A stretch of DNA of 55,525 nt from a virus. Taxonomy: Duplodnaviria > Caudoviricetes. The translations under genes and the position numbers were made by a program. Shown piece by piece: positions 10,001 through 30,600 of the stretch; positions within the stretch are counted from its first letter, which is position 1, and each line of letters begins with the position of its first letter. Under the pieces are notes generated by a model. It did not search any database. It saw only the letters and a list, made by a program, of their open reading frames with translations, and was not told the DNA's origin. The stretch is from IMG/VR virus record IMGVR_UViG_3300000116_000024, positions 1 through 55,525 of that record, one strand, 5' to 3'.

Positions 10001-13000
10001 TATACATTATTACCATTGCTATCTATACTATATTTAGGAGATCCAAAAGATGCTTCAATAACTTGAGGTATACCCAATGCTGATTGACCTAATACAGCTT
10101 GTCTAAACTTAGCATATTGTTCTGTGACCGATGTCTTCACTGCTTCATCAGTACCCTCTCTAAACATGCTACCTTTAGTGTTGGTAAGACCTGCTTCAGG
10201 CATTGCTTGGTATATAGCATTGTCTAACGAAGATTCACCCTCTGGTATAGGTTGTCCGTCTTCTCCAACTAGCTCACCATTCTCATTAACCATCACCATG
10301 ATAATCATTGAGTCTTTAAATCTCTTAATTAGATCTGGATCACCATCTAGCATTCTTTCTACAACACCTGGTAATAACTGATCTTGGATAGCACTTGTTA
10401 AATAGATACCACGTATATCATCTCTATTCTCAAAAGAGTTTAGGTTTGCTCCAAACGTATTTGCTCTAGTCTGATGATCTTTACCTTCGTTTATAGGATT
10501 TGTTGCAACAGGAAGTATGTCTGTTGATTTTAACTTAATAGGATTATAAGGACCTTCATACTCTTTAAGAGGTACAGCTTTAATTCCTGTATCTAATATT
10601 TTGTCTAGAAGCTTTTGATCATTTATTATCTTTTGTTCTGCAGCTTTCTGAGCATTGTATTCATTCATGATAGATTGAAACCTATCTAGTATAATTTTTC
10701 TAGCTCTGTATTCATTTCTTAACTCAGTTATGTCTGACTCTAACTTTCTTACCTCAGATACAGTATTCTCAATATCTGCCTCATTAAGGTTTACATCTTT
10801 AGATATGTCATTGGTAAGTTGGAAATTAACTATTTCTTGTTTAAGTGCAGGCCAAGTTACATCTAAATCTCTACCAGCTGCTACATCACTTAATAAATCA
10901 TTTAAAGATTGTGCATAAGTATCATCTACTATGTACGTGCTCTTAATTGCTTTCTTAAATAAACTTGCTGCTTTTTTAGTAACCTGTCTTAAGGTGGTAC
11001 CCATTTTCTTAGCAGCCTTGATAATGTTAGCTAAGTTTTTACCATTGTCAGCTAGTATCTTTACTTGACTCTTAAGTTCTTTTAAAAACTCACCACTGTC
11101 TTCAGGAGCATCAGATATCTCATTAGCGTATTGTTCAAAGTAAGAAATGTCATTTAGCACTTCTTCTCTTTCAGCTTCAGCTAACTTTATAGTTTTATTC
11201 AGATCCTTTCGCATCTGAGTTAATTTATTAATAGATCTTGTAAATGACTTAGTTGCTTTAGAAAAAGTAAGTTTAATCTTAGGACCATCAGGACCAGCCT
11301 TCTTCATTTTTCTAATGTTTGCTAAGTCTTCTTTAACTTTGGCTAAATCTTCTGAAGCCTTAGTTATTGTTTTTTCTAGTTCAGCAATGTTTTGTTTACC
11401 TTCTTCACCTAGTTGCGTAAGTACTTCAAGTCTAGCCTCTCTATTTTTAGCAAGTGTTTTTTTATTCTTTGCAATCTCTTGAGGACTAGTAAATTGTTGT
11501 TCAGAAGCTTTTTGATCTTTACTTTGAACACTTCCAACTCTTGTAATCCTAGGAAGATCATAACCTTCTTGTGGAACAAAGAATGAGTTGTCTAGTTGTT
11601 TTCTTTTTATGTTACTATTTGAAACTTTAGTTTTAGCTTTAGGTGCAGCCTTTTTATATGTAGTTAATTCTTTTTTTAATTTAACTTCAGCACCAGGTTT
11701 TGTAAAGTTTGCATCATCATATTCTTTAAGAGCTTTTTTTGCTGCATCATATCTACCTCTAGTACCTTCTAAATCTTTTGGGTCCAGAGCATTTTCTGCA
11801 TCTTTAAACTCCTGTAATAGTATATCTCTTTCTTCTGTAGTTCCTGTACCTACTAGTACATCATATTTTGCGCTTTGTACTTGCTTACCATCTACTAATC
11901 TTCTAGGTCTGACAATTTTGTTTACAATTGTAGTTCCTTTTGGAACACTATCACTTTCCCTTTGTAATGCAAATTCTATAGTTTCATTGTCAAATATTTC
12001 TCTACCAATCTCATTATCAATAATGTATCCATCAGCCTCAACTTCTTTCTTTGCATTATTAAACCAAGCCATGTCCTCTTCATTGACTGATTCATCAGTA
12101 TGGTGAGCATTGTTTAGAAAGAATATTAGAGCTTCAGCTTTCTCAGCACCTGTTTTTGCATTAGCAAACATTGACTTAGCCCTGTTGATTCTTTTTTCTA
12201 ATTTTGAAACTTTTTGTTTAACATCAGCTTGTGTTGTTTCAACCTTAGTAGTTTTGTCAGATCCTTTAGTTTTATATACAAAGTAAAGCTTACCATTATC
12301 ATATTCAAGTCTACCTCTTACTCTTCCACCAAAGTTCTTACCACGGTTAAGTTCAAAGATTTCGTTTCTATGATTATAAAAGTAGTTAGCAGTTTTATTA
12401 TTTCTTGTAGTGCTAACTTTACCAAGTTTAAGTTTATTGAACGTTCCCCTAGTTAAATTTCTTTCTTCTCCTGTTTTAGTGTTTACTATTTTTAAAGTAC
12501 CATCTTCATTATATCCCTTAACTATAAGTGTACCTATCTTAAATATTTCATCTAAACCATCTTCATTATAGTCTACACTATTTCCAACAAAGTATTCTGT
12601 TTCTACCTCAACATCTACTACACCCTTTTCTGTTTGAACTTTAATAGTTTCTGGAGCAACATCAGGAGTATCTGTTTGTTCTTGTTTTATAGGTTCTGAA
12701 AGATATTTGCTAGGGTTCTCCTTAATATCTTCGTATGTTTTTATAAATGTTTGACGTTGAGCTGCAGCATCAGCTATATCATCTAAGTAAGAGCCAAGTG
12801 TATCTTTTTTCTCACCTAATATATCTAATGATTTAATTTGCTCAACAGCTTTGTTATATGCCTCAAAGTTTCCATCTACTACACTTTTAAGAACTTCTGA
12901 TGTATTTATACCTGCAGCAGTTAACTTTCCTTCTAAGGTTATTATCCTTTGATCAAAGTCTTCTGTTTTAAGAGCAGTATATAACATCTTGTTCATTACA

Positions 13001-17758: not shown

Positions 17759-20700
17759 TTATAAATTTCTTATTGCTCTTAGAATATTACTATTCTTATT
17801 ATTTTTTGTAACCTTCTTTCCGTACTTACCACTTTCTGGAATTTCTTCTAGCTCTTCTACTTCTTTTGTTTTTCCTTCTTCTTCTTTTATTTCCTTTTTA
17901 AATGGATTGTTTTGAGAAAACCAACTTAATAAAGAGGCAGCATTGTTAACTCCTTGATTCCCACCTGTAATTCCTTGTACCATACTTAACGGACTAATAC
18001 CTGTCATACCTTGACCTGTATTAAATTGAGTAGGATTTACAACATTTAATCTTTGATTGTTATCATATTTAAAAGTTGGATACATGTTAGCATATACTTT
18101 ATTCATAACATTTTCTAACTTGTTTTTAGAGTACTTGTCACTAATAGAGTTCAGTATATCTATATTTTGTGTACGTGTATTAGCTGCAGCCTGAGCTTGT
18201 CTATCTGCTTGCTGATCATAAATACCCAAGTTCTTTAACATAGCATCATTTAATGTAGCTTGATTTCCTGAATAAACATTATCTTTCATTGCTTGATTCT
18301 GTCTAAACTCTTCAGCATTAATTTTATTCAACGCATCATAAGTTGGAGCTTGTGCTAAAGCAAGTGCTGCAGGATTATTTTGCAATGTAGCATTTCTTTG
18401 CATTGCTCTAGATTGTGACGTTACATCATTTCTCATATCTTGAAGAGAAATATCATAAGGAACTCTTAGCTGAGGTTGAAAACCTTGAGCTTGTACAGGT
18501 TGTACCTGATTAGTAGCCATTGCATAATATTCTCCAAGAAGTTGATTCTTGTCAAGAGACTGATCTTCTGGTGAATTATTAAAATTAACACCAGGACCTA
18601 TATTTCCTTTAGGAGCAACAGTTGTTGTTTCAGTAGTAGTATCGGTATCACCAAGCATTACTTTCTCCTCTGTGTAGTTTGTTACTTCCTCAGCTTCCTT
18701 AGCAGGTGTAAATACAGCATCTCTAGTTTCTTGCCCAAATATTCCATCAACTTTAACAGGGTCAATACCTGCCTCTTTAGCTCTTTTATTAAATTCTTTC
18801 TGAAATTTTAATATAGCTGAAGATACTTTCTTACCCTTGTATGTTACCATTTTATTAGGATCAGTTTTACTCCAATCAAACCAAGGATTGTTTTCTTTCA
18901 AAGTATCATAATCTTCTTGTGTAACACCTCCAGCAAATGATGTCTTTGGATCAATCGCTTGACCTTCAGGCGTATATCCTAATGAGCTACCTGACATTTC
19001 CACAGCCTCTGTTGTATTTGTTTCAGGGTTTCTTCTTATATAAACATTTGGATTGTTAGGATCTACCTTATAGCCTGCTGCCTCTAACTCTTCCTCAGTC
19101 ATGTCAGTTAAAGGAATTTGTTTTTTATTAAAATCATTTGCACTTGGAGGATTGGTAGTTTCATTACCAGTAGTCTCAACACCATCTTCGCCCATCTTCA
19201 ATCTTGCTCCATACTTAGCATTTTCTATCCTCATAGGATCTTCAACCAATTTTCTTTTATTTATAAACTCATTTGCTTTTATTCCATAGTCATCAAATGT
19301 TTCATTCATAGCTTCTTGTAAATCAGCTAATATACTCTTCTTCTCAGCAATGTTTTTTAATTTCATATCTGCACCTTTTAATACTACATCCGCAGTTCTT
19401 CTTTCTAACTGTCCAAACACTGTATCATCTGATTCTAATCCTAAATCAGCAACCTTTGCTTGTGTTCTGTTAATACTAGCTTCGTCTTTATTTAAAACGT
19501 TAGCAACATAGTTTTTATACTTTTTACCTTTTGCTCGTTCATCCCCTATTTCTGAAATGTATTCTTCTGGAATCTTCATATCCCCATATACAACTAAGCT
19601 ATCATCTATTTCTTGTGCTGGTTCATTTTCCACCTCTACACTTGCGTTAGATGTTATATCTCCACCCATAGACATCTTTTTAGCATCATCACCATAAGCA
19701 ACACCTATTCCTGTTTGTCCTGTACTAGGATCACGATAGTCATGAGAGTTACCTTTAAATTGAATACTCTCTCCACCAGCATAAGGATTGTAAGAAACTG
19801 TTTCAGCTTTCCCACCCCATAGTGTTTTAAGATTTCCTCCCATTTTCATTGTGTCTAATGCAGAAGGGTTGGGTGAAACATAATCACCTCTCATGTTACC
19901 ACCACTTCTATAAGAAGGTACGTTTCCTCCATCACGCACGTATGAAGAATATCCTGCCTGAATAGAAGGAGCTATAGCACCATATGACATTTCTTTAGTA
20001 TTTTTTGCAGTAACCTCATTTTCTAACCTTTGTCTTCTATCGTTTCTATCAAGCAAATCTCCTGCAGCAGATCCAAGGAAACCACCTACAGCAGAACCTA
20101 AAGGACCAAAGGCACTACCAATAGTACCACCAATTTTACCACCAATGTTACTTCCAGCATCATCATTTACACCAACCATTCCAGCAAGTTGAGATCCTGC
20201 TGCACCGTACATTCCTCCACCATATGAAGCATTTCCAGCATCAAATGAGGTAAATCCTTGTGCAGCTTGTTTTAAGTAACCACCTTGACCAAATGATTTT
20301 TGTTGATTAGGATTAACAAGAGGCATGTATTCACCATTAAACATTCCACCATCTTGTGCTTTATTAAAACTACGTGCATTCTTAGCAAAGTTTGCCATTT
20401 TTACAACTTCTTTACTATATTTACTTTTATTAGCCATCACTTTATCAGCTGCTTCAGCTACAGACATTCCTCTTTTCTTAGCCCATGCTGTAAACTTACC
20501 TTCATTTTTAGGATTAATATTAATTCCACTTTTAGCTAGAACATTTGTTCCTACACCATATACTGGAAAGAACTCTTCTCCTGTATTTGTAAAATCTTCA
20601 GGACGTACATATGACCTATCTACTTTTTCTGGTGTTGTTTTAGATGCTTGTAAAGCAATATCAGACACTTGTCTAGCTTGCTTTGCAGAACCTAATGCTT

Positions 20701-21439
20701 CTTTTTGAGCTTCTATTTGATCTGCAATTTCTAAAGCATCACTTACAATAGGAACTCCCCAGTTTTGAACTGCGTCAGAATTCATAACATCCCCAAACTG
20801 ACTCATAGTATCACCCCCTTTAGCTTTTGGTGGGTTATGTCCCCAACCTTTTTTCTTAAGAGCTAGATGTTCCTTTAAAGTTTTAACTGTTTTAACTTCT
20901 CCTTTAGGACCATACATTTTATGTGCCTTAAACTTCTTAGTTGTTCCACCATTTTTAAAGTTACCACCTCCACCTAAAGAAGAACCTATGTCAAACCCTG
21001 TTCCAGACGTGTCTGAACTTGCAAATTGTGAAAATTGACTAGTGTCACCACCACCGCTACCACTACCTAAACCACCAAGCATACCACCAAGTTGACCAAG
21101 CATACCACCAAGTCCACCACCACCTTGTGGATTAGCAGTTTGTTGATTTGCTTCTAATTTGGCTCTGTATAACTCATCATCCTTAAGTTCTTTAGTACTT
21201 TTACCACCCATTAACTTAGCAGCACTATCATCCATATACTCCTGATCAATACGAATAGGTGTAAGATTTGATTGTGGGGTGCTTATGTTAGGAACCATAG
21301 TACCTATCTTTGCTTTTTTAGCTTTAAGTTTTTTTATGGCTTTTCCATGTTTTTTCATAAAGGCTTCCTCAGAAGGAAACTTCTTGTAAAACTCTGCTTC
21401 AGACTTAACGCCTGCTATTTTTAAAAATTCAGATCTCAT
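17759..21439 (-). CDS. Putative ejected/cargo protein with glycine zipper, GxSH-type conserved block and peptidoglycan-binding motif
   Basis: 1226 aa. Glycine zipper GGKIGGTIGSAFGPLGSAVGGFLGSAAG; FKGNSHD...VEVENE block; FQKEFN...VDGIFGQETRDA PG-binding-like motif; Q/N/A-rich C-terminal helices; many xxxGG/KAxxG motifs. Confidence 0.7.
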   Translation of the reverse strand: MRSEFLKIAGVKSEAEFYKKFPSEEAFMKKHGKAIKKLKAKKAKIGTMVPNISTPQSNLTPIRIDQEYMDDSAAKLMGGKSTKELKDDELYRAKLEANQQTANPQGGGGLGGMLGQLGGMLGGLGSGSGGGDTSQFSQFASSDTSGTGFDIGSSLGGGGNFKNGGTTKKFKAHKMYGPKGEVKTVKTLKEHLALKKKGWGHNPPKAKGGDTMSQFGDVMNSDAVQNWGVPIVSDALEIADQIEAQKEALGSAKQARQVSDIALQASKTTPEKVDRSYVRPEDFTNTGEEFFPVYGVGTNVLAKSGININPKNEGKFTAWAKKRGMSVAEAADKVMANKSKYSKEVVKMANFAKNARSFNKAQDGGMFNGEYMPLVNPNQQKSFGQGGYLKQAAQGFTSFDAGNASYGGGMYGAAGSQLAGMVGVNDDAGSNIGGKIGGTIGSAFGPLGSAVGGFLGSAAGDLLDRNDRRQRLENEVTAKNTKEMSYGAIAPSIQAGYSSYVRDGGNVPSYRSGGNMRGDYVSPNPSALDTMKMGGNLKTLWGGKAETVSYNPYAGGESIQFKGNSHDYRDPSTGQTGIGVAYGDDAKKMSMGGDITSNASVEVENEPAQEIDDSLVVYGDMKIPEEYISEIGDERAKGKKYKNYVANVLNKDEASINRTQAKVADLGLESDDTVFGQLERRTADVVLKGADMKLKNIAEKKSILADLQEAMNETFDDYGIKANEFINKRKLVEDPMRIENAKYGARLKMGEDGVETTGNETTNPPSANDFNKKQIPLTDMTEEELEAAGYKVDPNNPNVYIRRNPETNTTEAVEMSGSSLGYTPEGQAIDPKTSFAGGVTQEDYDTLKENNPWFDWSKTDPNKMVTYKGKKVSSAILKFQKEFNKRAKEAGIDPVKVDGIFGQETRDAVFTPAKEAEEVTNYTEEKVMLGDTDTTTETTTVAPKGNIGPGVNFNNSPEDQSLDKNQLLGEYYAMATNQVQPVQAQGFQPQLRVPYDISLQDMRNDVTSQSRAMQRNATLQNNPAALALAQAPTYDALNKINAEEFRQNQAMKDNVYSGNQATLNDAMLKNLGIYDQQADRQAQAAANTRTQNIDILNSISDKYSKNKLENVMNKVYANMYPTFKYDNNQRLNVVNPTQFNTGQGMTGISPLSMVQGITGGNQGVNNAASLLSWFSQNNPFKKEIKEEEGKTKEVEELEEIPESGKYGKKVTKNNKNSNILRAIRNL

Positions 21440-21440
21440 A

Positions 21441-24400
21441 TTAATTGTATTTGTCTAACCAGCCTCCTGATTGTGGGGTGTTGTAATTAGTAAAGTTAGT
21501 TAATTGATTTAGTTCTACCAAGGAACTACCGTTTTTTGCCATAGGATACTCTGTAAACTTAGTAGCACCAGGGAATGTTTGTGTACCTGTATTAGCTTGT
21601 ACCATTCTTGGTTCTCCTACATCTGGTACAACATATAATGGATTATCTCCATAACCATGTGTAGCCATAGTGTTTCCTGAAATCTCCGTTACTTCTCCTG
21701 GGTGTGCCCATTGTCCCATATCATCTTTTATAACTCCTCCTTTTTTGAGTTTTCTTAAACCATATTGAGGAAGCATTACTTCACCACTTGAATTTTGAAA
21801 AAAAGGTCTTAGTAGATCATCAGGAAGTTTTATTTTAGATATATTAGTATCAATTTGATTGTTTAAATAAGCTGCTATGTTTTCATTTATTCCCCTAGTC
21901 ACTGATCTAGAACTATTACCTGCTGCCCTATTTATGTTACCCATAGGATTCATTGGTTTATATCCCAAAAATATAGGATCTGCAACACCTTTCATTTTAG
22001 GACTAAAAACTTCATTTAATTGAGGTAAGTAAGATTGGTAAGATGTATCAGTTGACCCTGTAAATATGTCTCCTCTATTACTCATTCTAACTCTAGCTCT
22101 AGCATCTTTAACCATGTTTGCATAATCTCTTTTACTAGTATGTGGGCCTAGTTTCACTAATGGAACTAACTCTTCTGTAAAACCACCAGGTTTAACATAA
22201 GGGTACGATGATATATTAGCTAAGTCTTGACCACTTAAATCCTCTACATCAGTAGTAGAGTTTTTAGGAGCTGGTTTAGATTGTCTTACTCTATTTGGAA
22301 TTTCTGTTACAGCTTCATTGATTTGTGACGTTTTAGTAGCTACATTACCAGTAACTAGATTATCTACATTATCTACATCATCATAAATGTTACGAACCAT
22401 AGTATCAATATCTACACTAGATCGTGAAGGTGTTGAAGGTCTATTTAAACTAAATCCACTAATATCTGGATTTAGTTGAACAACACCGTATCTATTAACA
22501 TTTTCTATAGCCTGTTCTACACCTTCTTCAGTAGAATCTAAAGTTCCAACTACTTTTTTAGGTTTAGGAATAGTAGAGGTAAGATCATCTAACTCGCTTT
22601 GTAATTGTTTTTTATTTTTATAGAATATTGATTCTAAAATTGGATCATCAAGATTACTTTTTAAAGCTCTTTCTAACATAACCTGTCTGCTTCCACCCAT
22701 TTCTCTAAGAGTCATTACCTCATCTATGTTCTTAAGTATATCAAACTCAGAAGGATCTAACCTAGGTAAATCACTAGCTTTTGTAATCCCCTTAACTCTA
22801 GATGCATAAGTTTCTCTAACTTTTTTAGGTAACTTATCTAAAATCCTAGAAAAAATATTATTCATCTCTACATCTGGCTTGTTAACTCCTCCAAGCTCCC
22901 ACCATTTAGGATCAATATCAGAAAAGTCTTTTGCTAAATCTGAATTAAATTTAGATATGTTTTTAGTTTTGTCAATTAAATCATCAGAATATTTTCCAAA
23001 AGTTTTAGCAATAGAGTTTAGTTTAGGAGTAGCTTTTAATCCTAACTTAACAATATCGTCATAAAGTCCAACACCAACAAGATTTGTTGGATCAGCTACA
23101 ACATCCATAGCTGTATTTATAGAACCTCCTAAATCCCAACCTGGCTTATCTTCAAATCCAAATGCTTGAGATGGCAATCTTTGCATACCACTTCCAGGTA
23201 AAGCGTTAGAGAAATTATAATCATTTCCCCTTAAAGCTTCTATACCTTCGACCATAGCAGCTTGAGGTGCTTGTGCAGTTTCTAACGCTCCTTGTAAAAG
23301 TTGTCCTGGTATAGCTAAAGCATCTTCAGCAAGTCCTCTTTTAGTTTGAGCTTTTCTTCTAACAGCGTTTCCAATTGGACTATAATCGTTGTGATAAAGA
23401 TCTTTTTCTTGATCTGTTAAGGTATCATAATAAATATCTTTATTATAATCTACACCACTATTTATAACAACTTCATCTAACTGATTAGGATATGTAGCAA
23501 AAGCACCTCCTTCATATGTTTCTTTATACCTATCATCGTAGTTAGAATCATCAGGGAATACAAGCTCATACGCAGGTTCTTCAGAAGTCGCAGATTCTCC
23601 AGAAGTAGTTTGTACATCAGTATTCACTCCTCCAAAGTTTCCATTTTGAGCTTTAGGAACATCACCGCCATCTTCATATTTATCTAACCAACCACCATTT
23701 TTCTTTTTAGAATATAAATTGTTGTAAGTTGAGGCATCTGCTTTAAAAGATGTTCTTCTTTCTTGCTCATCTTTATTACCTCCAGACCAATGTCCAGTCA
23801 CCCAAAAATCTTCAATTGCTTGATCATCTTTATCTCCTGAAAAGAAAGCTTTAAGTTTTGCAGTAGGTTTATCTCTATAGTCAGCTAATAATAATGTTTT
23901 TTGTTGATCAGGTGTTAGCTCTGAAGCTTCTTTAATTTTTTTACTACGAATGTCTTTTATAAATTGTGGAAGTTCTAGTCCAGTTTCCTTAGAATAATTA
24001 TAAGCTCTATTAGCTGCAGTCTTAAAGCTATCTGGTTCAAATTGATATAACCCTCTTCCAAGACCTATACCAGTAGGATTATCTTTAGTTTTCTTTACCT
24101 TTTGTTTAGCTAAAGGATCATTTTTAGATTCATGGTAACTAATCATGCCAGAAAGCTTTTCCCAATCTTCAGTAGTACCACCACTAGATATTACAGCATC
24201 ATTTAATAATGAATCATAAAAAGATTTTGGTTTCTCTTCAATAGGTTTAATAGTTGGTTCAGTAAAATTTTCTAGGAAGGATGGGCTATTTTCTCTAATC
24301 TTCTCCCAATCATAAGTGTCTCCAGTTTGAGCTTTCTTTAATTTACCAGGTTCCATTGATGCATTACTAGATGTACGTCCATACATCATACCTGATGCAC

Positions 24401-26636
24401 CTGGAAGACTTCCACCATTTTTAAAACCGTTACTTAATCCAGTTGCTTCTCCAACTGCATCTTCTATTCCTTGTGTTATTAGTTCTTTTTTTGCAAGTAT
24501 AAGTCCAACATTGGGTATAACTTGTTTTGCGAGTGTGTTAGTAATCAGACTTCCTCCTAAAGTGTACAAATTCACCGCATCAAGTCCTGAACCTGCTAAG
24601 CTATAAAGATCTTGATTTTTTTGGTTTTCATTTAAAAGACTGTTTCTCTTTGGGTTTCTAAAACTATTTGATGATTTAAATCCTACGTCAAAAGGAGAAG
24701 TTATAACTTCACTTAATGTCCTAGGTATCCAAGGAAGTTTGTTTTGCTCCTCTTTCAAATTGTTATAACCTCTAAAAAGAGCTTTTCCTATTCCAGGTTT
24801 TTTAAGATATTTGTTGAATTTAGCGTCATACTCTTTTATTCTATTAGCAAATTGTTGTTGCCTTAGCTTGTACATTTCTTCAGACTCACCTTTTAGTCTG
24901 TTTGGATTAGTTTCTAATTGATCTTTGTGAAACTCTTTCTTTGTTTGATAGCTAGTCTTTTGCTTTCTAGAGTTAGGCGGAACGTATTGGTCCATAGGAA
25001 ATCCAGAAGCTTCTAACTGAACCCTCTTTAGTTGTTCTTCTGGAGAAGGTAGAAACATATCAGAAGATGGTTCATCTTTACCATTTTGTGCTTTTTCTAC
25101 ATCTCCACCATTTTCATACTTATCTAACCATCCACCGCTTTTATACTCAGGTCTCCTAACTTCATTATCTTCATTTTTAAAGTATACATTTTCTGATAAA
25201 CCATCTTCTTCCCCTTGTTCACCTCTTACATACCCATCAGGAAGCATATTATTATATGAAGCATATTTTATAACATCATCTTTTGTTTTATCATCTATAG
25301 GTAACGAACCAATAACAGATCCAAAAAGGTTATTAAGTACATCCTCACCAGACTCTTGAAGTTTTGTTGACCAATCTCTTTTATCTTTGTCACCAAACAA
25401 GGTTGTAAGTTCATGACCTATCCCTAATGCATTAGAACCTAATAAGCCTAAAGCATCAGATATAAGAGGAATGTTTCCTGTTTTGTTTGCTATAGCTTCT
25501 TGAGTTAATCTAGTAGCTTGAGCATGTCTCATATTATCTATATTAGCCAACTCATCTGGATTCTCTGCAAACTCTCTAGCTTCTCCTTGAGGATCTCCTA
25601 GATACTTATTGATAGCCTCTTTTATTCCATTTTGTGCTTTAGGAGGATAAGGAGTGTTGTTTGGGCGTAAGTTATCCTTTCTATAAGCCTCTCTAGTTTG
25701 CATTGTTTTAAAGTTACCATTGAGCTCTTTTATATAATGAAAACCTTGTGACTCAGGATTTTCTATTCCCATTTTTTGTAAAAGTCCTAAAGGTATTGGT
25801 TTATCATTTTGATTATAAGGCTTGTGCTGATAAATAGGTTGTGCTTCTATATCCCCAGATGTTAATAATTCTAAATTTGGTTTAAAAGGTTCTATTCCAT
25901 AACTGTCAAGTTGAGATAGAGGTTCTTCTATAGGTCTTTTAGGTGTCTCTTTAGATGGAGTTAGTTTAGTTTCAATTCTATCTTTTTGTGAGTTTTGTTC
26001 TACTACAACTTTTTGTCTAGGTTTAGCATTAGAATAATTAAAAACACTTCTAACATCTTGAGAACCTCCCATTATATTTAAGCCTACATTATATAAATTT
26101 CCTGTTCCATTAAACTCATAATTATCTGGACTAGTTCCTGTCCAATATTTATCCTTATCTATATATTCTGTAACTCCTATAGGGTCTATGTTTTTATTAA
26201 AAAGTTGCATAGGTAAATTAGTATTTACCATATCATCTTGCAAATCTAAAACCTTATATTTATCTTTATTTATATGTTTAACATATTTAGGTTTTAAATT
26301 TTCTAAAGCTTCAAAAGCTTTACTTCCTCTTTTAGTAAGAATATTAGCTCCTTCACCGTCCCAATTAGAAGCATCAATACCTTTTTCTTTAAGCATTTTC
26401 TTTTTCATTGCAAGATAATCTGGATTAGAAACGGAGTGTCTTTCTAATTTATAATTATTTTTCAATAAACTTTTTTGCACTTTTTTATAATCATTATAAA
26501 CTTCTAAACTATCTTGATAAGCTTTATACCTAGGATCATCTTTAGATTCAACTGTTAGTGTTTCTTCTACTTCTGTACCATCTTGAGCTTTAGTTACAGA
26601 ACCTCCGTCCTGATACTTATCTAACCATCCTCCATT
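21441..26636 (-). repeat. Dispersed intragenic repeat GGWLDKY(E/Q)(D/N)GGxVxKAQ(D/N)G
   Basis: Full copies at about 26577-26636, 25080-25137 and 23640-23699. A truncated copy (GGWLDKYN-stop) is at 21441-21467. Short forms at 25626-25646 (PPKAQNG) and 24321-24338 (KKAQTG). Confidence 0.95.
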
Positions 26637-26771
26637 AATGGCTTTCAAAGGCGTAGCCCCACTAGCAATAGCTCCAAAGTATTTTCTTTGCTTTGCTGTG
26701 AGAGGTTTACCTTTTATGTAACCGTCTGTAAGTATCTTTTTAGCTTTAGCTGCTGATAAACCTTTTGCCAT
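21441..26771 (-). CDS. Multidomain repeat-delimited putative cargo polyprotein (includes SAA/DUF6973-like and lytic transglycosylase-like domains)
   Basis: 1776 aa with four GGWLDKY repeats, a DNMRH...GHE...DVLNNLFG motif and a HES...GRGLYQF motif. Lies between the muzzle gene and the cargo genes. Confidence 0.7.
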   Translation of the reverse strand: MAKGLSAAKAKKILTDGYIKGKPLTAKQRKYFGAIASGATPLKAINGGWLDKYQDGGSVTKAQDGTEVEETLTVESKDDPRYKAYQDSLEVYNDYKKVQKSLLKNNYKLERHSVSNPDYLAMKKKMLKEKGIDASNWDGEGANILTKRGSKAFEALENLKPKYVKHINKDKYKVLDLQDDMVNTNLPMQLFNKNIDPIGVTEYIDKDKYWTGTSPDNYEFNGTGNLYNVGLNIMGGSQDVRSVFNYSNAKPRQKVVVEQNSQKDRIETKLTPSKETPKRPIEEPLSQLDSYGIEPFKPNLELLTSGDIEAQPIYQHKPYNQNDKPIPLGLLQKMGIENPESQGFHYIKELNGNFKTMQTREAYRKDNLRPNNTPYPPKAQNGIKEAINKYLGDPQGEAREFAENPDELANIDNMRHAQATRLTQEAIANKTGNIPLISDALGLLGSNALGIGHELTTLFGDKDKRDWSTKLQESGEDVLNNLFGSVIGSLPIDDKTKDDVIKYASYNNMLPDGYVRGEQGEEDGLSENVYFKNEDNEVRRPEYKSGGWLDKYENGGDVEKAQNGKDEPSSDMFLPSPEEQLKRVQLEASGFPMDQYVPPNSRKQKTSYQTKKEFHKDQLETNPNRLKGESEEMYKLRQQQFANRIKEYDAKFNKYLKKPGIGKALFRGYNNLKEEQNKLPWIPRTLSEVITSPFDVGFKSSNSFRNPKRNSLLNENQKNQDLYSLAGSGLDAVNLYTLGGSLITNTLAKQVIPNVGLILAKKELITQGIEDAVGEATGLSNGFKNGGSLPGASGMMYGRTSSNASMEPGKLKKAQTGDTYDWEKIRENSPSFLENFTEPTIKPIEEKPKSFYDSLLNDAVISSGGTTEDWEKLSGMISYHESKNDPLAKQKVKKTKDNPTGIGLGRGLYQFEPDSFKTAANRAYNYSKETGLELPQFIKDIRSKKIKEASELTPDQQKTLLLADYRDKPTAKLKAFFSGDKDDQAIEDFWVTGHWSGGNKDEQERRTSFKADASTYNNLYSKKKNGGWLDKYEDGGDVPKAQNGNFGGVNTDVQTTSGESATSEEPAYELVFPDDSNYDDRYKETYEGGAFATYPNQLDEVVINSGVDYNKDIYYDTLTDQEKDLYHNDYSPIGNAVRRKAQTKRGLAEDALAIPGQLLQGALETAQAPQAAMVEGIEALRGNDYNFSNALPGSGMQRLPSQAFGFEDKPGWDLGGSINTAMDVVADPTNLVGVGLYDDIVKLGLKATPKLNSIAKTFGKYSDDLIDKTKNISKFNSDLAKDFSDIDPKWWELGGVNKPDVEMNNIFSRILDKLPKKVRETYASRVKGITKASDLPRLDPSEFDILKNIDEVMTLREMGGSRQVMLERALKSNLDDPILESIFYKNKKQLQSELDDLTSTIPKPKKVVGTLDSTEEGVEQAIENVNRYGVVQLNPDISGFSLNRPSTPSRSSVDIDTMVRNIYDDVDNVDNLVTGNVATKTSQINEAVTEIPNRVRQSKPAPKNSTTDVEDLSGQDLANISSYPYVKPGGFTEELVPLVKLGPHTSKRDYANMVKDARARVRMSNRGDIFTGSTDTSYQSYLPQLNEVFSPKMKGVADPIFLGYKPMNPMGNINRAAGNSSRSVTRGINENIAAYLNNQIDTNISKIKLPDDLLRPFFQNSSGEVMLPQYGLRKLKKGGVIKDDMGQWAHPGEVTEISGNTMATHGYGDNPLYVVPDVGEPRMVQANTGTQTFPGATKFTEYPMAKNGSSLVELNQLTNFTNYNTPQSGGWLDKYN

Positions 26772-27643
26772 TATTTATAACTTATTTGTGCAGGTGTTGT
26801 TATGAATTGACTTACCAAGTGTACCGTTGATCTATTATCAAGGATATGTCTTACTTTTAAATCTTTTGCTCTTAGAGGTGACTTTCTGTACGTGCTAGGA
26901 CCATAGTTCATATTCTCCTGATTAACTACCTTATCTAAAGACTTAGATGTACAAGGTGTGTTAAATAGAGGAATACTACTATTTATTTGTAGTGCCCAGA
27001 ACGTATTATATTGATAGAAGTTATCACTCTTTGTATATAGAATAGTTTTACTATCTTCATTAAAGATAGGATAATTTCCGTAAGCTGATAAATTATTTTC
27101 AGGTTTTCGCACAAGCTCTAATATACCTGTAGACTGTTGACCATTAAATAATACAGCTTTGTTAAACCATTCATTGTTTACTTCTACTCTACGATTAGCA
27201 TCAAACTGTTCAGTTTCACTTTGATAATATCTATATGCTTTAGTATAATCTTTTACATTTTGTAATATCTCATCTTGATATTTATAAGAAAAAGGATACT
27301 CAATGATGTAAGGTTCTATATGACCATAGTAATAATTATATCTAGATTGATTAGTTAAATGTGACCATATACATCCTGTACCATTTTCTACATATGGCGT
27401 ATCAACCCATTCTTCATTTGTTATATCTTCTAATGGAAATATTATTTCAAACTCACAACTACCTGTTGACTTAATCTTTACAGAAGTTGCAGCTTCATCT
27501 ATTTCTAATGATATACCTTCAACAAGCTCCTCCTTAGTTACACCAGCTCGTAACATAACATCTTGGATAGTTAATATATCAAATGGTCCTTGATTATTAC
27601 CAGATGATACAACTCTTATTGATATTGTTTTTGTATTTGCCAT
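26771..27643 (-). CDS. Virion protein: ~70-aa beta-rich N-terminal module plus probable C-terminal part of the muzzle/tail-stabilisation protein
   Basis: 290 aa. N-terminus resembles the proteins at 37496-39136. The remainder (IWSHL...YNYYYG...PYIIEYPF...FNKAVLFNGQQSTG...LRAKDLKVRHILDN) reads like the usual C-terminus of crAss-like stabilisation proteins. Confidence 0.6.
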   Translation of the reverse strand: MANTKTISIRVVSSGNNQGPFDILTIQDVMLRAGVTKEELVEGISLEIDEAATSVKIKSTGSCEFEIIFPLEDITNEEWVDTPYVENGTGCIWSHLTNQSRYNYYYGHIEPYIIEYPFSYKYQDEILQNVKDYTKAYRYYQSETEQFDANRRVEVNNEWFNKAVLFNGQQSTGILELVRKPENNLSAYGNYPIFNEDSKTILYTKSDNFYQYNTFWALQINSSIPLFNTPCTSKSLDKVVNQENMNYGPSTYRKSPLRAKDLKVRHILDNRSTVHLVSQFITTPAQISYK

Positions 27644-27652
27644 TTTAATATA

Positions 27653-30600
27653 TTAGGTTTGACACGATGAAGGTTGAACTAATGTTGCTCCAGGTATTGG
27701 TTGATTTGAGCAAACGCTAACTGTTACACCAATTGCTACATTTAATGGTGTCCATTCATTTGTTTCACAAGCTTGATATCCTCCATTAAATGGACCAGTA
27801 ACATCATACTGATTACATTCTAACGGTACACAAATTTCAGTATCAACAATAACTCCATTTTCTACATTAAATACATAAGCATTAAAACCATTTTGGTAAG
27901 TGCTTTCTGTAGAATACCAACCATCTGGAACAAGAGTGCAATCAATTCCTGCACCATCATAAAGAACAGTATCTACATTTAAACCATCTGAAGAATTATA
28001 CATAAAACTTCTAAGTGTAGGAACTCTTGATGGTTGAGGGTCTCCAAAGACTAACGCTGCTGCACTACAAGCATCTTGAGCACTACCTGTACTTATTACT
28101 GGAGGATCTAGATTTTCTTGGTAACCTTCTAATAAAGAACTGTTTATTAAGCCAGAAGGTCTTGAACATGCTGTTGTAGTTGGAGGAATAACTATTGTTG
28201 CAGTTCCTGCTAGTGTACAATTTGTTAGGGTAAATATAGCATCTCCTATTTCACAATCCGCTTGTTGAGTTGTACTTGTAGTTGTAGTAAACAACGGTGG
28301 ACTTGTTGATGTACTTGTTGTAGTAATAGGTATTACAGGTCCTACTTCTCCAGCTATAACATCAAAATTAAGATCACAACAATCATTCTTTCCTGAATAG
28401 AAAAAAGCATTATCTGCTATATAAAAATTAGGAAGGTATGAGTGAAAAGATATCCAGCTTTTTATATTAAAGTCATAAGACATTGTCCATGACTTATTAC
28501 AGAAATACTTTTCGTTATGTAATGATATAGGTGTTCTTCCACGACTTACACTATTATAAAAGAAGTCACCTTCTTCATCGTACGCTATAGAATCTAACAA
28601 AGGAGCATAATCAAGTTTAGTAATGATTATTCTATCAAACTTACTATCGTATACACCATGTAAACCAATACCACTAAAAGCATTGTCTGTTTCTACATTA
28701 GGAAAAAATCTAAGTATATGAAACGGAAGCTCATCTTTCATGAACTTATTTACTCCAGAATTAAACGAAGTTAAATCAACAGCTTGACCAGCTATTATAA
28801 ATATTTGACCTCTCTTAGCATCAGCTGTAATTTGACCTTGTGGTATCTTTAATAAAAACTTATTTTGAGATCCTACATAACCAAGGTCTGTCTCAGCATA
28901 ATCAATTGGTGGAGCCCCATTAAATAATCTAGGATTTCCAACATAAGCTGCTTGAGGGTTACTTGTATCAATTGTTAATAGATTATTATACAGTAATGAT
29001 TTGTTTTCAAAACGAGCAAGTATTGCTTTGTTCTGAATACCATCTAATGATGTAAGGTTTCCAAAGTTTTGAGGAAAGTCAAAAAAGGAAAGTGCTCTAT
29101 ATACTAACCAGTTATTTACTCTATTGTCAGCATTTGTTGAAGCTGGATCAGAATAGATAGTTCTAAATGGGTAATTAGTAAAACATTCATCATCTTTCCA
29201 ATCAGCAGGAAGGTGTGAAAATGAATTTTCTTTATTTTGCTTAGAGAATGTTACATTATAATAATATGTATTGTCCTGAGCAATAGGTACATTAGTTTCT
29301 TGTACCCAATCATCAGGTATTCCTGAACTTACATGTGGCCAGAAATCTCCTTCTTTATTATTAAATGCTTGACGTAAATCTGTATTATATGTACTTTCAC
29401 AATAAAAACTAGGAACACCGTATGCAAAGTTATACATATATCCATCGTAGAAAGTTCTAGCTGAACCATTTGCAATAGTTGATGGATCAGTAGCACAATC
29501 AAAGTTGTGAGCTTTGTATGAAATTATATTTCTCATAGGAACATCACCATCACTTGTTACTAGATAATCTTCTAGTATAGATCTTGCTGAGTGCCAATAT
29601 TTTGGATATCCTACATTACCTATTTCATCATAAAATATATCACTGTCATCAGGGGCATTTACTCTGTTGTCAATAAAGAAAGGAAGTTTAGTTTTATATG
29701 CAAACTTTGAGATGAACACATCTCCACCAAAAACAATACCTGTATCTTCTCCAATAGTAGATGTAAATAAACTAGAGATTATTTCTTGATATCCTGTATC
29801 AATAGTTTGGTAAGAATATATTTGTCCCCATTGATTAGGAACTATATTCTTCATTGATGCATAATAAGAAAGTACAGAAATATCTCTTTCTTTAGCAGGT
29901 GTAGCACATGTACCACTTCCACATTCAGTACCAGTACCAGGATTAGAAGTAATTGTAAATCTAGAGTTATCAAAAATTTCAGATTGGTCACCAGTTGGAT
30001 TTATAGTAGGAGTATCTGTTGGAAGAGGTAGAGGAGGAACTGTTTCATCCTTATCTTCTGTTTTAACAAACACAGAACTCTCTCTATTCCAATTATTAAT
30101 ATCTAACTCATCTTTTCCTAATGATTGAACTCCAGGAATTAAGTATCTAGAAATATCAATTTCTCTTTGTTTAATACCTACATCTTGAGGACTTAACGTT
30201 AATGATGCACTATTTTCAATATCAAAAGAGTAATCATAACTAGCTCTAGAGTTAAATGACATTCCATAGTTTCTTCTAGTAATACCATTTATATAAATTG
30301 TAAGATATGATTGATACACTGTAAACATTACCCCAGCATTAAAATCAGTAAGATCTGCAACTTCTTCAGAACTTTCTAAAGCATCTTGTTGGGCTTCTTT
30401 AGAAAGCAGTTTATATTTAGCATTGTCTTTAACTTCTACAAAATGAGCTTTACCAGCTCCAAACATTACACTCTCTAACTTAAGTACACCACCTAAGAAA
30501 GGTTGTCCAAAAGATGTTTCAGGAGAGTTAAATATTTGTCTATTAGCACTTTCTGATTTTACAGGATCTTGAGGTGTTTCTATTTGACAATTTAGTGTAG

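What the first reader, a model, noticed from the sequence alone, without database searches (positions are those of the whole stretch)
21441..26771. Repeat-delimited cargo polyprotein: unrelated effector-like cassettes strung between GGWLDKYxxGGxVxKAQxG linkers
Seen: three full ~19-aa linkers (26577-26636, 25080-25137, 23640-23699), a terminal GGWLDKYN-stop, and short forms (PPKAQNG, FKNGG...KKAQTG, LKKGG, MAKNG). They cut the protein into about five unrelated blocks of roughly 165-630 aa, plus short basic N-terminal and beta-rich C-terminal caps. Two blocks have recognisable enzyme/toxin-like motifs. Known: genes at this position in crAss-like phages encode capsid-internal ejected proteins, and Gly-Gly-directed processing occurs in ASFV pp220/pp62 and at adenovirus protease sites. 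Inference: this is a modular injected-effector array. The linkers may be maturation cleavage sites or capsid-loading tags and, being similar at DNA level, recombination points for cassette exchange.
Basis: partly seen in the sequence, partly recalled or inferred. Interest (0 to 1): 0.9.

Follow-up and report, generated by a model that had tools for sequence, protein, structure and literature searches.

The report
Phage cargo protein with swappable cassettes
This gene of an uncultured crAss-like phage encodes a very large protein made of unrelated modules joined by one standard short peptide connector, and closely related phages gain, lose and reorder the modules exactly at those connectors.

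Summary
ORF 21441-26771 (-) encodes 1776 aa with four exact GGWLDKY copies, the last at the C-terminus, plus KAQxG-type short forms. These cut it into five mutually unrelated blocks between a basic N-cap and a beta-rich C-cap.

Modularity and recombination at the linkers are well supported.
- 120 homologues resolve into 110 cassette families and 100 distinct orders. The N-cap is always first and the C-cap always last.
- A metagenome contig about 98% identical in DNA differs inside this gene by three clean cassette indels, each bounded by linker-coding repeats.
- Contigs from 4 of 4 sequencing runs laid join across cassette C at the linkers.

The motif is also selected as a peptide: 51 exact copies are coded by 29 different 21-mers.

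The gene always follows the Crassvirales muzzle gene plus one small gene, the region where crAss001 encodes its cargo proteins. Relatives carry ART-PolyVal, kinase, SLT, amidase and SET domains, so it fits the "polyvalent protein" class.

Cleavage or loading-tag roles remain untested, and no protease was found in the window. No paper searched mentions the motif. Verdict: a new variant of a known kind.

The parts
21441..26771 (-). Whole gene: 1776-aa modular cargo ('polyvalent') protein, P0001
   Evidence: ORF list and translation. 141 homologues with patchy coverage.
26634..26771 (-). N-cap, aa 1-46, basic (10 K/R, 1 D/E)
   Evidence: Always the first module where present. Found in 72 of 243 family proteins.
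26577..26633 (-). Full linker 1: GGWLDKYQDGGSVTKAQDG (aa 47-65)
   Evidence: Its KAQxG part is the left junction of the cassette-A indel against L037.
25641..26576 (-). Cassette A (aa 66-377), function unknown
   Evidence: Absent from the ~98%-identical contig L037. Found in 11 of 243 family proteins. Only a sub-threshold Pfam hit, Nucleotid_trans E 0.017.
25626..25640 (-). Short linker KAQNG (aa 378-382)
   Evidence: Right junction of the cassette-A indel. HSP starts cluster at aa 371-380.
25137..25625 (-). Cassette B (aa 383-545): all-alpha domain with invariant DxxRH, GHE, ExxED and NN residues; distant DUF6973-like
   Evidence: Alignment A3. AF2 mean pLDDT 77.9. No PDB fold match at E<=0.001. 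DUF6973 hit in 2 of 13 members, best E 4.3e-4, and DUF6973 proteins among the BFVD top hits. Found in 21 of 243 family proteins.
25080..25136 (-). Full linker 2: GGWLDKYENGGDVEKAQNG (aa 546-564)
   Evidence: Left junction of the cassette-C indel.
24417..25079 (-). Cassette C (aa 565-785), function unknown; seen only in this phage
   Evidence: Found in 1 of 243 family proteins. Skipped by contigs in 4 of 4 runs laid (joint 24413->25117). Absent in L037 and L039. Flanked in the window by an exact 11-nt direct repeat that codes N-G-G.
24321..24416 (-). Long linker element GGSLPGASGMMY...KLKKAQTG (aa 786-817)
   Evidence: Homologous to the MGGSIPGAVGFTYAR...KASAQNG element of minimal family members. 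Found in 66 of 243 family proteins.
23697..24320 (-). Cassette D (aa 818-1025): probable lysozyme-like / lytic transglycosylase domain (YHES...GRGLYQFE)
   Evidence: Phage_lysozyme2 E 0.084, below cut-off. 34% identity over 143 columns (E 1e-22) to Methylophilales phage MEP301 gp41. That protein has weak Phage_lysozyme2 (E 0.0019) and SLT (E 0.0046) hits.
23640..23696 (-). Full linker 3: GGWLDKYEDGGDVPKAQNG (aa 1026-1044)
   Evidence: 43 HSP starts fall in aa 1021-1030. Homology to L038 starts at aa 1024. Several contig joints end here.
21741..23639 (-). Cassette E (aa 1045-1677), function unknown; its first ~200 aa (E1) are widespread in the family
   Evidence: E1 in 60, E2 in 17 and E3 in 28 of 243 family proteins. 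No Pfam, NCBIfam or Atlas assignment.
21468..21740 (-). C-cap (aa 1678-1768): GGVIKDDMGQW... small beta barrel plus the LTNFTNYN tail; contains the MAKNG insertion point (21528-21542)
   Evidence: Found in 238 of 243 family proteins. 1704 cluster representatives at E<=1e-3. AF2 barrel core at pLDDT about 67-82, ends below 50. No fold match. L037 carries a ~720-nt insertion at the MAKNG site.
21441..21467 (-). Terminal GGWLDKY + N + stop
   Evidence: 104 of 120 and 90 of 123 family proteins end in this motif plus 0-3 residues.
26771..27643 (-). Upstream conserved 290-aa gene (g290); its last base is the first base of P0001
   Evidence: Present directly upstream in 36 of 36 viral loci. No family or PDB match.
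27653..33412 (-). Crassvirales muzzle protein gene
   Evidence: PF25731 crAss_MUZ, E 1.9e-44.
17759..21439 (-). Downstream 1226-aa gene; its orthologues also carry GGx(hydrophobic)xKAQxG motifs
   Evidence: Present in 32 of 36 loci. KAQxG contexts listed. Contig joints at its KAQDG site, 20364.

Best explanation
The gene encodes a virion-carried, ejected cargo protein of an uncultured crAss-like phage, probably of aquatic Bacteroidota. It is built as a chassis plus a payload.

The chassis is an N-terminal cap, a conserved Gly-rich element, a small beta-barrel C-cap and a terminal ...QPGGWLDKY(N) tail. The payload is a variable string of unrelated domains. In this phage these are a DUF6973-like putative enzyme, a probable peptidoglycan hydrolase and three unknowns. 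In relatives they include ADP-ribosyltransferase, kinase, SLT, amidase, SET and about 100 further families.

Each payload domain is separated from the next by a standard connector: GGWLDKYxxGGx(hydrophobic)xKAQxG or one of its parts.

SHOWN: the DNA that codes the connectors provides short in-frame homologies (11-18 nt exact) at which cassettes are inserted, deleted and reordered. The gene is therefore a recombination hot spot that re-arms the phage while its neighbours stay collinear.

SHOWN: the connector is also conserved as a peptide despite synonymous change, so it has a function in the protein.

INFERRED: the protein is packaged and ejected like crAss001 gp45/gp46 and acts as a 'polyvalent protein'. 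The connectors are flexible joints that let the domains unfold and refold one at a time during extrusion. They probably also serve as processing or docking signals.
For: Anatomy and non-chance repeats.

Family-wide pattern:
- The motif is present in 214 of 243 family proteins.
- The C-terminus ends in the motif in 104 of 120 and 90 of 123 proteins.
- The motif occurs in exactly one ORF in 33 of 36 viral loci, and in no other ORF of 150 aa or more.

Shuffling:
- 497 segments fall into 110 families, of which 71 are singletons. There are 100 distinct orders among 120 proteins, and 7 family pairs occur in both orders.
- Cassette B's family has 5 different left and 8 different right neighbours among 11 members.
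- With linkers masked, 27.2% of 10094 internal HSP ends abut a delimiter against 4.2% of random positions.

Direct recombination evidence:
- L037 is 97.9-98.7% identical in DNA over muzzle, g290 and the shared cassettes, yet lacks cassettes A and C and has an insertion in the C-cap. Every junction lies in KAQxG-, NGG- or MAxxG-coding repeats.
- L039 and L038 break at aa 2/377, 557/786, 1024, 1674 and 1745, and once inside E at aa 1151.
- The joint 24413->25117 appears in 4 of 4 runs laid, with three different 10-11-nt fillers.
- 9 of 20 joint ends inside the gene lie within delimiters, which cover 5.5% of it.

Peptide-level selection: 51 exact GGWLDKY copies in 36 sequences are coded by 29 distinct 21-mers, with near-background codon use.

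Cargo context:
- The muzzle gene lies upstream. The order ring 1, muzzle, g290, this gene, g1226, g882, giant ORF with DFDID recurs in the loci that extend that far.
- crAss001 encodes virion cargo proteins directly after its muzzle gene (passages of PMC10172136).

Polyvalent character: ART-PolyVal, Pkinase/Kdo, SLT, Amidase_2 and SET each lie inside a single cassette of a relative.

Flexible joints: AF2 pLDDT is below 50 on the stretches that flank the linkers.
Against: - No virion proteomics, expression or structural data exist for any member. 'Cargo' rests on gene position and domain content.
- There is no detectable sequence similarity to crAss001 gp45/gp46 or to any PDB chain. The C-cap model matches no solved fold.
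- Four of the five cassettes of this protein have no family assignment, so 'effector' is unproven for them.
- The masked-BLAST boundary test may be inflated, because runs of X can end HSPs.
- One of the DNA breakpoints against L039 (aa 1151) and 7 of 20 contig-joint ends are not at linkers. Recombination is therefore enriched at connectors, not confined to them.
- All relatives are metagenome assemblies. The longest exact repeat in the gene is only 18 nt, and I judge (recalled) that this is too short for assemblers to mis-join. The same junction recurs in independent data sets.
Confidence: 0.75

Rival explanations
1. Processing version. The connectors are cleavage sites. The protein is a true polyprotein cut at GG or AQxG, in the capsid or after ejection, so that each cassette is released as a separate effector. 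The terminal GGWLDKY(N) is the form that every cleaved piece would end in.
For: - The natural C-terminus stops 0-1 residue after the Y in 129 of 183 terminal copies. Cleavage there at internal copies would give all pieces the same end.
- KAQxG also closes short N-terminal leaders of neighbouring cargo genes: many g1226 orthologues at position 37-48, and the window's 4664-aa ORF at residues 8-12. This resembles cleaved targeting leaders of other phages (recalled: the T4 capsid targeting sequence).
- The crAss-like literature already expects fused virion polyproteins to be cleaved (passage of the preprint 10.1101/2020.03.07.982082).
Against: - No protease family and no HExxH motif was found in the muzzle-to-RNAP block.
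- The crAss001 atlas text contains no word beginning 'cleav' or 'proteoly'.
- No proteomic data exist for this family.
- The KAQxG leader is not conserved in the 4664-aa ORF's orthologues listed.
Confidence: 0.3
2. Docking or handle version. The connectors are not cut. They are short linear motifs that bind a repeated site inside the particle (portal, ring proteins, scaffold or capsid wall), or that guide stepwise threading through the tail. Each cassette is thereby tethered and ordered for ejection.
For: - In crAss001, separate short segments of one cargo protein bind the portal, the tail-barrel rings and probably the muzzle (passages of PMC10172136).
- The aromatic and charged core WLDKY is invariant or nearly so, while the flanks vary.
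- The terminal ~30 aa (LTNFTNYN..QPGGWLDKY) stay conserved even when 200-700 aa are inserted before them.
Against: - No partner has been identified.
- A single tag would suffice for an uncut protein, so several copies need a further reason such as avidity or ordering.
Confidence: 0.3
3. It is not internal cargo. It is an external tail or host-recognition protein whose modules are swapped to change host range, as in mosaic tail fibres.
For: The gene lies beside the muzzle and a small conserved gene of unknown role. It is the most variable gene of the block, as receptor-binding proteins often are.
Against: - Relatives carry ART-PolyVal, kinase and SET domains, which need access to the cytoplasm.
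- The conserved part is the C-terminus and the variable part is the middle, the opposite of typical fibres (recalled).
- No fibre or beta-helix family was found.
- Cargo genes occupy the region after the muzzle gene in crAss001.
Confidence: 0.08
4. The mosaic is an assembly artefact caused by the repeated linker DNA.
For: All relatives are metagenome contigs. The linkers are repeated within the gene.
Against: - The longest exact repeat is 18 nt.
- The cassette-C-less junction recurs in 4 of 4 runs from 4 studies with three different filler sequences, and also in L037 and L039.
- All junctions keep the reading frame.
Confidence: 0.02

Closest known systems
Polyvalent proteins of phages and conjugative elements (Iyer, Burroughs, Anand, de Souza, Aravind 2017, PMC5512222; I read passages only)
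   Same: A large phage-encoded polypeptide that strings together several unrelated effector-type domains, in a late/virion gene context, and is thought to enter the host with the DNA. Relatives of this protein carry the class's own ART-PolyVal domain, a kinase, and lysozyme/peptidoglycan enzymes.
   Different: The main text of that paper has no occurrence of 'linker', 'glycine' or 'boundar', and does not describe a conserved inter-domain connector. Its proposed processing enzyme (zincin-like MPTase) was not found here: no HExxH motif. No Crassvirales link is in print in the library searched. I could not see its supplementary architecture files.
Cargo proteins C1 (gp45) and C2 (gp46) of crAss001 (Bayfield et al. 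2023, PMC10172136; I read passages only)
   Same: The gene lies downstream of the muzzle gene and upstream of the virion RNA polymerase genes. The expected fate is storage in the capsid or tail and ejection by partial unfolding.
   Different: There is no detectable sequence similarity and no fold match of the C-cap to any PDB chain. A 290-aa gene intervenes. Length ranges from about 190 to more than 2600 aa within the clade, and content is hypervariable. gp45 and gp46 are described as broadly conserved.
Demarcation motifs of polymorphic toxins: VENN in CdiA, PxxxxDPxGL in Rhs (Poole et al. 2011, PMC3150448; I read passages only)
   Same: A short conserved peptide marks the border between constant and variable parts. 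Homology between relatives stops at the motif-coding DNA. Recombination between motif-coding sequences is proposed to reload the variable part.
   Different: In those systems there is one motif and one C-terminal toxin per protein, with an immunity gene and silent orphan cassettes alongside. Here up to five motifs per protein separate several in-frame internal cassettes, there are no immunity genes, and the carrier is a phage virion protein.
Viral polyproteins cut at Gly-Gly sites (ASFV pp220/pp62, adenovirus protease substrates; recalled, not looked up)
   Same: Repeated Gly-Gly-containing sites lie between functional units of a structural-gene product.
   Different: No cognate protease was found and no evidence of cleavage exists. 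The units here are interchangeable accessory domains, not fixed structural proteins.

Membership tests
Polyvalent proteins (Iyer et al. 2017) | Two or more unrelated effector-type domains in one polypeptide of a phage or plasmid | tested here: met
   Five mutually unrelated blocks in P0001. Relatives combine ART-PolyVal with kinase and other domains. 110 cassette families in 120 homologues.
Polyvalent proteins (Iyer et al. 2017) | Presence of hallmark domains of the class (e.g. ART-PolyVal, MPTase) | tested here: inconclusive
   ART-PolyVal passes its cut-off in relatives P0011 (37.5 bits) and P0062 (49 bits) against a cut-off of 31.2. It was not found in P0001 itself. No HExxH motif.
Polyvalent proteins (Iyer et al. 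2017) | Delivered into the host together with the DNA (virion-packaged) | not testable with these tools
   Only gene position among virion and cargo genes is available.
Crassvirales cargo protein (crAss001 gp45/gp46 type) | Encoded after the muzzle gene, before the virion RNAP genes | tested here: met
   Muzzle PF25731, E 1.9e-44. Ring 1 PF24228. DFDID motif in the 4664-aa ORF. Synteny in the viral loci, with a 290-aa gene between muzzle and this gene.
Crassvirales cargo protein (crAss001 gp45/gp46 type) | Sequence or fold homology to gp45 or gp46 | tested here: not met
   phmmer of P0001 against all PDB chains gave 0 hits at E<=5. The C-cap profile and fold searches gave no crAss001 chain.
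Crassvirales cargo protein (crAss001 gp45/gp46 type) | Detected inside virions | not testable with these tools
   No member was found in the phage record collection. tblastn of P0001 against 50,697 records gave only one hit, to cassette D.
Polymorphic-toxin style demarcation (VENN / PxxxxDPxGL) | Homology between relatives breaks at a short conserved peptide motif | tested here: met
Polymorphic-toxin style demarcation (VENN / PxxxxDPxGL) | Variable C-terminal toxin with adjacent immunity gene and orphan cassettes | tested here: not met
   The variable parts are internal and the C-terminus is conserved. The next gene is the conserved g1226 in 32 of 36 loci.
Protease-processed viral polyprotein | A cognate protease encoded by the virus | tested here: inconclusive
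   None was found in the window. Not all small ORFs were scanned, and the contig is only 55.5 kb of a probably ~100-kb genome.
Protease-processed viral polyprotein | Mature products with termini at the sites | not testable with these tools
   Needs proteomics.

The most novel reading that the evidence does not exclude
The connector is a dual-use standard part, an in-frame counterpart of an integron attachment site. As DNA it is the joint at which phages of this clade trade effector cassettes. As peptide it is a processing or loading signal, so that each cassette is packaged and then released in the host as a separate effector by a protease that is still unknown. The family would then be a natural plug-and-play protein-delivery system holding over a hundred undescribed anti-host or anti-defence domains.
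Probability: 0.3. Interest if true: 0.9.

Novelty: new variant of a known kind. Interest (0 to 1): 0.74.

Why it matters
This is a clear natural example of domain shuffling caught in progress. Phages that are about 98% identical differ by whole in-frame domains, with the recombination joints visible at nucleotide level.

The family is large: 1704 cluster representatives at 50% identity. It occurs in freshwater, seawater and sediment metagenomes. It has no cultured member that I could find.

Its roughly 110 cassette families, most without any annotation, are a ready-made list of candidate injected effectors. These include cell-wall enzymes, ADP-ribosyltransferases, kinases and possible anti-defence factors. 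They are already cut out at their natural domain borders, which makes them easy to clone and test.

The invariant connector poses a sharp question that can be tested directly: is it a cleavage site, a docking motif or an ejection handle? The answer bears on the open problem of how crassviruses load and eject megadaltons of protein.

If the chassis tolerates arbitrary inserts, it could serve as a tool for delivering proteins into Bacteroidota.

Tried and rejected
- Whole-protein and per-cassette family scans gave nothing above curated cut-offs for P0001: Pfam and PHROGs on the whole protein; Pfam and NCBIfam on each cassette.
- PDB sequence searches gave no useful hit: P0001, the C-cap profile (best E 0.73, a ribosomal protein, taken as chance), the g290 profile and g1226.
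- Foldseek found no hit at E<=0.001. C-cap against PDB: best 0.035, ppnP cupin-like, TM 0.30, not taken as a match. Cassette B against PDB: best 0.43. Cassette B against BFVD: best 0.2, used only as a lead to DUF6973.
- The ESM Atlas scored at most 0.84 for cassette B and 0.83 for cassette E, which is chance level by the tool's own figures. A PT-TG family at 0.78 was not used.
- Complex prediction of the portal (860 aa, no alignment) with the C-cap (alignment A1) returned 'no answer', score 0.00. This is no evidence either way.
- A word-based search for stand-alone relatives of cassette D (114-364 aa) found none. A viral-contig scan with cassette D found none.
- The test for a zincin protease was a regex only (HExxH). 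A divergent protease would be missed.
- I considered g290 as a chaperone or protease. It has no catalytic-looking family and no PDB relative. Its N-terminus looked to me like a tail-accessory domain, which is an impression and was not tested. I dropped the idea.
- MAG titles for four C-cap loci were Kapaibacterium, Micavibrio, Sediminibacterium and Schleiferiaceae. They give only a weak Bacteroidota host hint, because binning of phage contigs is unreliable.
- Sequencing runs: 24 runs in 14 study codes were listed, 20 of them (12 studies) holding part of the stretch, with shares of 0.32-0.58 for the 20 holders. I laid only 4 of them (X15, X16, X1, X2). Parts without cover in those runs are not used as evidence, except where a contig joins across them.
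- Supplementary files of the papers were not seen. Those of PMC5512222 (architecture lists) may contain members of this family.

Full report
1. THE OBSERVATION

ORF 21441-26771 on the minus strand encodes 1776 aa. A six-frame scan of the window finds exact GGWLDKY four times, all in this frame (aa 47, 546, 1026, 1769) and nowhere else. The three internal copies continue as xxGGxVxKAQxG. The fourth is followed by N and the stop codon.

At DNA level the three full linkers are a 65-nt repeat at 75-80% identity. The longest exact repeat in the gene is 18 nt and lies in two linkers. In 1000 shuffles of the protein, repeated 7-mers averaged 0.002; the real protein has four, with up to four copies.

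The blocks between the linkers (312, 163, 221, 208 and 633 aa) show no similarity to each other; the best hit was E 0.045 over 15 aa. The N-cap is basic, with 10 K/R against 1 D/E. The AF2 model of the C-cap is a small barrel of six strands.

2. CONTEXT

The window is the whole assembly held, a single contig of 55.5 kb. It carries:
- terminase, portal and major head protein (PHROGs);
- a Crassvirales ring protein 1 (PF24228, E 1.1e-7);
- the muzzle protein (PF25731, E 1.9e-44);
- then a 290-aa gene, this gene, genes of 1226 and 882 aa, and a 4664-aa ORF with a DFDID motif at residue 3756. I recall that motif as the signature of crAss-like virion RNA polymerases, and it is named as DFDxD in the abstract listed.

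In 36 related viral contigs the 290-aa gene precedes the motif gene in 36 of 36. The muzzle is seen in 35 of 36 and the 1226-aa gene follows in 32 of 36; the misses are loci that end early.

In crAss001, gp44 is the muzzle and gp45/gp46 are cargo proteins found in virions. Segments of gp45 bind the portal, the tail barrel and probably the muzzle, and ejection is thought to involve partial unfolding (passages of PMC10172136). The gene studied here therefore lies in the cargo region. It shows no detectable similarity to any PDB chain.

3. THE FAMILY

A search with the whole protein gave 141 homologues at E<=1e-3 among 8000 scored candidates, of which 120 were listed. Their coverage is strikingly patchy: for example 89% identity over 56% of the query, 96% over 22%, and lengths of 983-2658 aa.

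A search with the 112-aa C-terminal part against 1.84 billion cluster representatives gave 1704 hits at E<=1e-3 and 617 at E<=1e-10. The 123 new proteins among the best 150 are 79-2090 aa long.

Across the 243 proteins in hand:
- the C-cap is present in 238 and the N-cap in 72;
- cassettes A, B, C and D are present in 11, 21, 1 and 9;
- the first part of E is present in 60.

The motif GGW[LIMVA]xx[YF] occurs 1-5 times in 214 of 243 proteins. 104 of 120 and 90 of 123 proteins end in it, plus 0-3 residues. In 36 viral loci plus the window it occurs in one ORF per sequence (33 of 36 loci), and in no other ORF of 150 aa or more.

Minimal members of 193-275 aa consist only of an N-terminal piece, GGWLDxY, a Gly/Asn/Tyr-rich stretch, the element MGGSIPGAVGFTYAR...KASAQNG, the C-cap and the terminal GGWLDKY. 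The 'linker' elements therefore belong to a conserved chassis into which cargo has been inserted. The N-terminal piece comes in three kinds; one looks like a zinc ribbon with CxC...CxxC.

4. SHUFFLING

I cut the 120 homologues at the delimiters. This gave 497 segments of 30 aa or more in 110 families (mutual coverage at least 60%), of which 71 are singletons. There are 100 different family orders among the 120 proteins. The N-cap family is always first and the C-cap family always last. Seven family pairs occur in both orders. Cassette B's family (11 members) has 5 different left and 8 different right neighbours.

With the delimiters masked, 27.2% of 10094 internal ends of HSPs (at least 50% identity and 80 aa) abut a delimiter, against 4.2% of random positions. 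The median distance is 20 aa against 86 aa. Masking itself may end some HSPs, so I treat this as supporting evidence only.

5. RECOMBINATION CAUGHT AT NUCLEOTIDE LEVEL

Metagenome contig L037 is 97.9% identical to the window over 3.2 kb of muzzle, g290 and the gene's start, and 98.3-98.7% identical over the shared cassettes. Inside the gene it differs by three clean indels.

- (i) Cassette A is missing. The window has ...KAQDG|TEVE... on the left and ...PPKAQNG|IKEA... on the right, while L037 reads ...APKAQNGIKEA.... The crossover therefore lies in the KAQxG-coding repeat.
- (ii) Cassette C is missing. In the window it is flanked by an exact 11-nt repeat that codes N-G-G. L037 reads GGWLDKYQMGGSLPGASGMMY.
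- (iii) L037 has about 720 extra bases in the C-cap, between PMAQQG and LMAKQG, where the window has a single PMAKNG.

All three keep the reading frame.

L039 (88-95% identical) breaks at aa 2/377, 557/786 and 1674, and once inside cassette E at aa 1151. L038 begins its homology at aa 1024 (linker 3) and has the C-cap insertion at aa 1745.

Independent data agree. Twenty of the 24 runs listed (12 studies) hold part of the gene, none more than 58% of its sampled words. I laid 4 of them. In 4 of 4, contigs join 24413 to 25117, skipping exactly cassette C, with three different 10-11-nt fillers that read QT-G, QM-G or GM-G.

Ten of the 15 listed joints lie inside the gene, and 7 of those 10 have at least 30 letters on the shorter side. 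Nine of their 20 ends fall within delimiters, which make up 294 of 5331 nt (5.5%). Four more ends are within 13 nt, and 7 are elsewhere.

The gene is thus a hot spot of in-frame cassette gain and loss, strongly enriched at the connectors but not strictly confined to them. Assembly chimeras are unlikely. The longest exact repeat is 18 nt, which I judge (recalled) to be shorter than usual assembler word sizes. The same junction also recurs across studies with different fillers.

6. THE CONNECTOR IS SELECTED AS A PEPTIDE

In 36 sequences, 51 exact GGWLDKY copies are coded by 29 different 21-mers. Codon use is close to the background of the same loci. One unexplained exception is GGC at the second glycine: 23 of 51 copies against 3% in the background.

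A logo of 208 distinct internal contexts gives [K][N]-G-G-W-L-[D]-[K]-[Y/F]-x-x-G-G-x-hydrophobic. GGWLDKYxx and GGxVxKAQx look like two copies of one 9-residue unit, which is my reading.

GGx(hydrophobic)xKAQxG also recurs in the next gene's orthologues. It often closes a ~36-aa N-terminal leader, and it also occurs at internal sites. It never occurs in the muzzle, g290-like or g882-like ORFs of the 36 loci. The window's 4664-aa ORF starts MAKDKLPKAQTG. Contigs also show indels abutting the KAQDG site of the 1226-aa gene, with joints from 20364.

7. WHAT THE CASSETTES ARE

- D shares YHES...G[RK]GL[YM]QFE with gp41 of Methylophilales phage MEP301, a stand-alone 190-aa protein: 34% identity over 143 columns, E 1e-22. 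That protein gives weak Phage_lysozyme2 (E 0.0019) and SLT (E 0.0046) hits, and D itself gives Phage_lysozyme2 at E 0.084. A peptidoglycan-cleaving role is likely but not proven.
- B has invariant DxxRH, GHE, ExxED and NN residues in 13 sequences. It folds as a confident helical bundle (mean pLDDT 77.9) with no solved structural relative. It is weakly linked to DUF6973.
- A, C and E have no assignment. No strong transmembrane segment is present; the maximum Kyte-Doolittle score over 19 residues is 1.28.
- In relatives, single cassettes hold ART-PolyVal (three proteins, two above the cut-off), a Pkinase/Kdo-like kinase, SLT, Amidase_2 and SET.

8. MECHANISM

Shown:
- the chassis-plus-payload anatomy;
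- cassette exchange at connector-coding microhomologies;
- purifying selection on the connector peptide;
- a fixed genomic position in the cargo block.

Inferred:
- The protein is packaged and ejected, and acts as a polyvalent protein in the sense of Iyer et al. 2017 (passages).
- The connectors and their low-confidence flanks are flexible joints that suit stepwise unfolding through the tail.

Open: whether the connector is cut, with my odds about 0.3. For this reading, the natural C-terminus stops right after the Y, and KAQxG closes N-terminal leaders. Against it, no protease was found. The alternative is a docking or threading handle, also about 0.3, by analogy with the several bound segments of crAss001 gp45. 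The two roles could coexist.

9. COMPARISON AND NOVELTY

The class (polyvalent proteins, crassvirus cargo) is known. The principle of a conserved peptide that marks a recombination border is known from VENN and PxxxxDPxGL in CdiA and Rhs (passages of PMC3150448).

What I did not find in print:
- the motif itself: 0 papers for four spellings, matched anywhere in words;
- any paper that links Crassvirales with polyvalent proteins or ART-PolyVal: 0 papers;
- any mention of conserved inter-domain connectors in the main text of PMC5512222. Its supplements were not seen.

What is new here:
- a multi-copy, in-frame, standardised connector that turns a virion protein into an array of exchangeable cassettes;
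- the size of the family;
- direct nucleotide-level evidence of ongoing exchange.

I rate it a new variant of a known kind, with interest 0.74.

Noticed in passing
window 1036-15030 (-): A single 4664-aa ORF with DFDID at residue 3756. It is probably a fused virion RNA polymerase polyprotein. It starts MAKDKLPKAQTG, so it has a KAQxG motif at residues 8-12. It has no Pfam hit at E<=0.05 and no HExxH motif.
   Followed up: partly
window 17759-21439 (-) and its orthologues in L002-L071: The next gene (1226 aa here, roughly 850-1570 aa in full-length orthologues) also carries GGx(hydrophobic)xKAQxG motifs. In many orthologues one closes a ~36-aa N-terminal leader. Contigs in 3 of 4 runs show 166-176-nt indels abutting its KAQDG site (joints from 20364). 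It may be a second modular cargo gene that uses the same short delimiter.
   Followed up: partly
51 GGWLDKY copies in the window and loci: The second glycine uses GGC in 23 of 51 copies, against 3% GGC among glycine codons of long ORFs in the same loci. The other positions follow background usage. This is unexplained; it could be a nucleotide-level constraint or shared ancestry.
   Followed up: no
L020:8321-8938 (+): A 206-aa ORF lies between the motif gene and the g1226 orthologue. Its N-terminus (..GIYTITNN...HIYVGAAS..) looks to me like a GIY-YIG homing endonuclease. That motif is recalled and was not tested.
   Followed up: no
L004, L005, L006, L013, L016 and others: There are alternative N-caps. 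One is a CxC...CxxC zinc-ribbon-like start (MSSGKVKCTCGWSW...CHECG). Another is MAKWLDKYEQGGLVLKKK, where the motif sits at the very N-terminus. These differ from the basic N-cap of the window.
   Followed up: no
L082:2773-6498 and L083:2773-6498 (+): In contigs of 88-110 kb, a 1242-aa ORF has a C-cap-like stretch (..GGEYKFPGSSVFEIPLAQIG) at its N-terminal end. This is followed by a B-like cassette and KAQxG sites, with no GGWLDKY. The xAQxG delimiter system may therefore be wider than the GGWLDKY family.
   Followed up: no
window 35607-36851 (-): A 414-aa ORF among the tail genes matches PHROG 704 'DNA repair exonuclease' (E 2.5e-50). This is an odd place for such an enzyme; it may be a structural metallophosphatase-fold protein.
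   Followed up: no
window 26771 and 21439-21443: Gene packing is tight. The 290-aa gene and P0001 share base 26771. Only one base separates P0001's stop codon from the start of the next gene. This suggests coupled translation of the cargo block.
   Followed up: no
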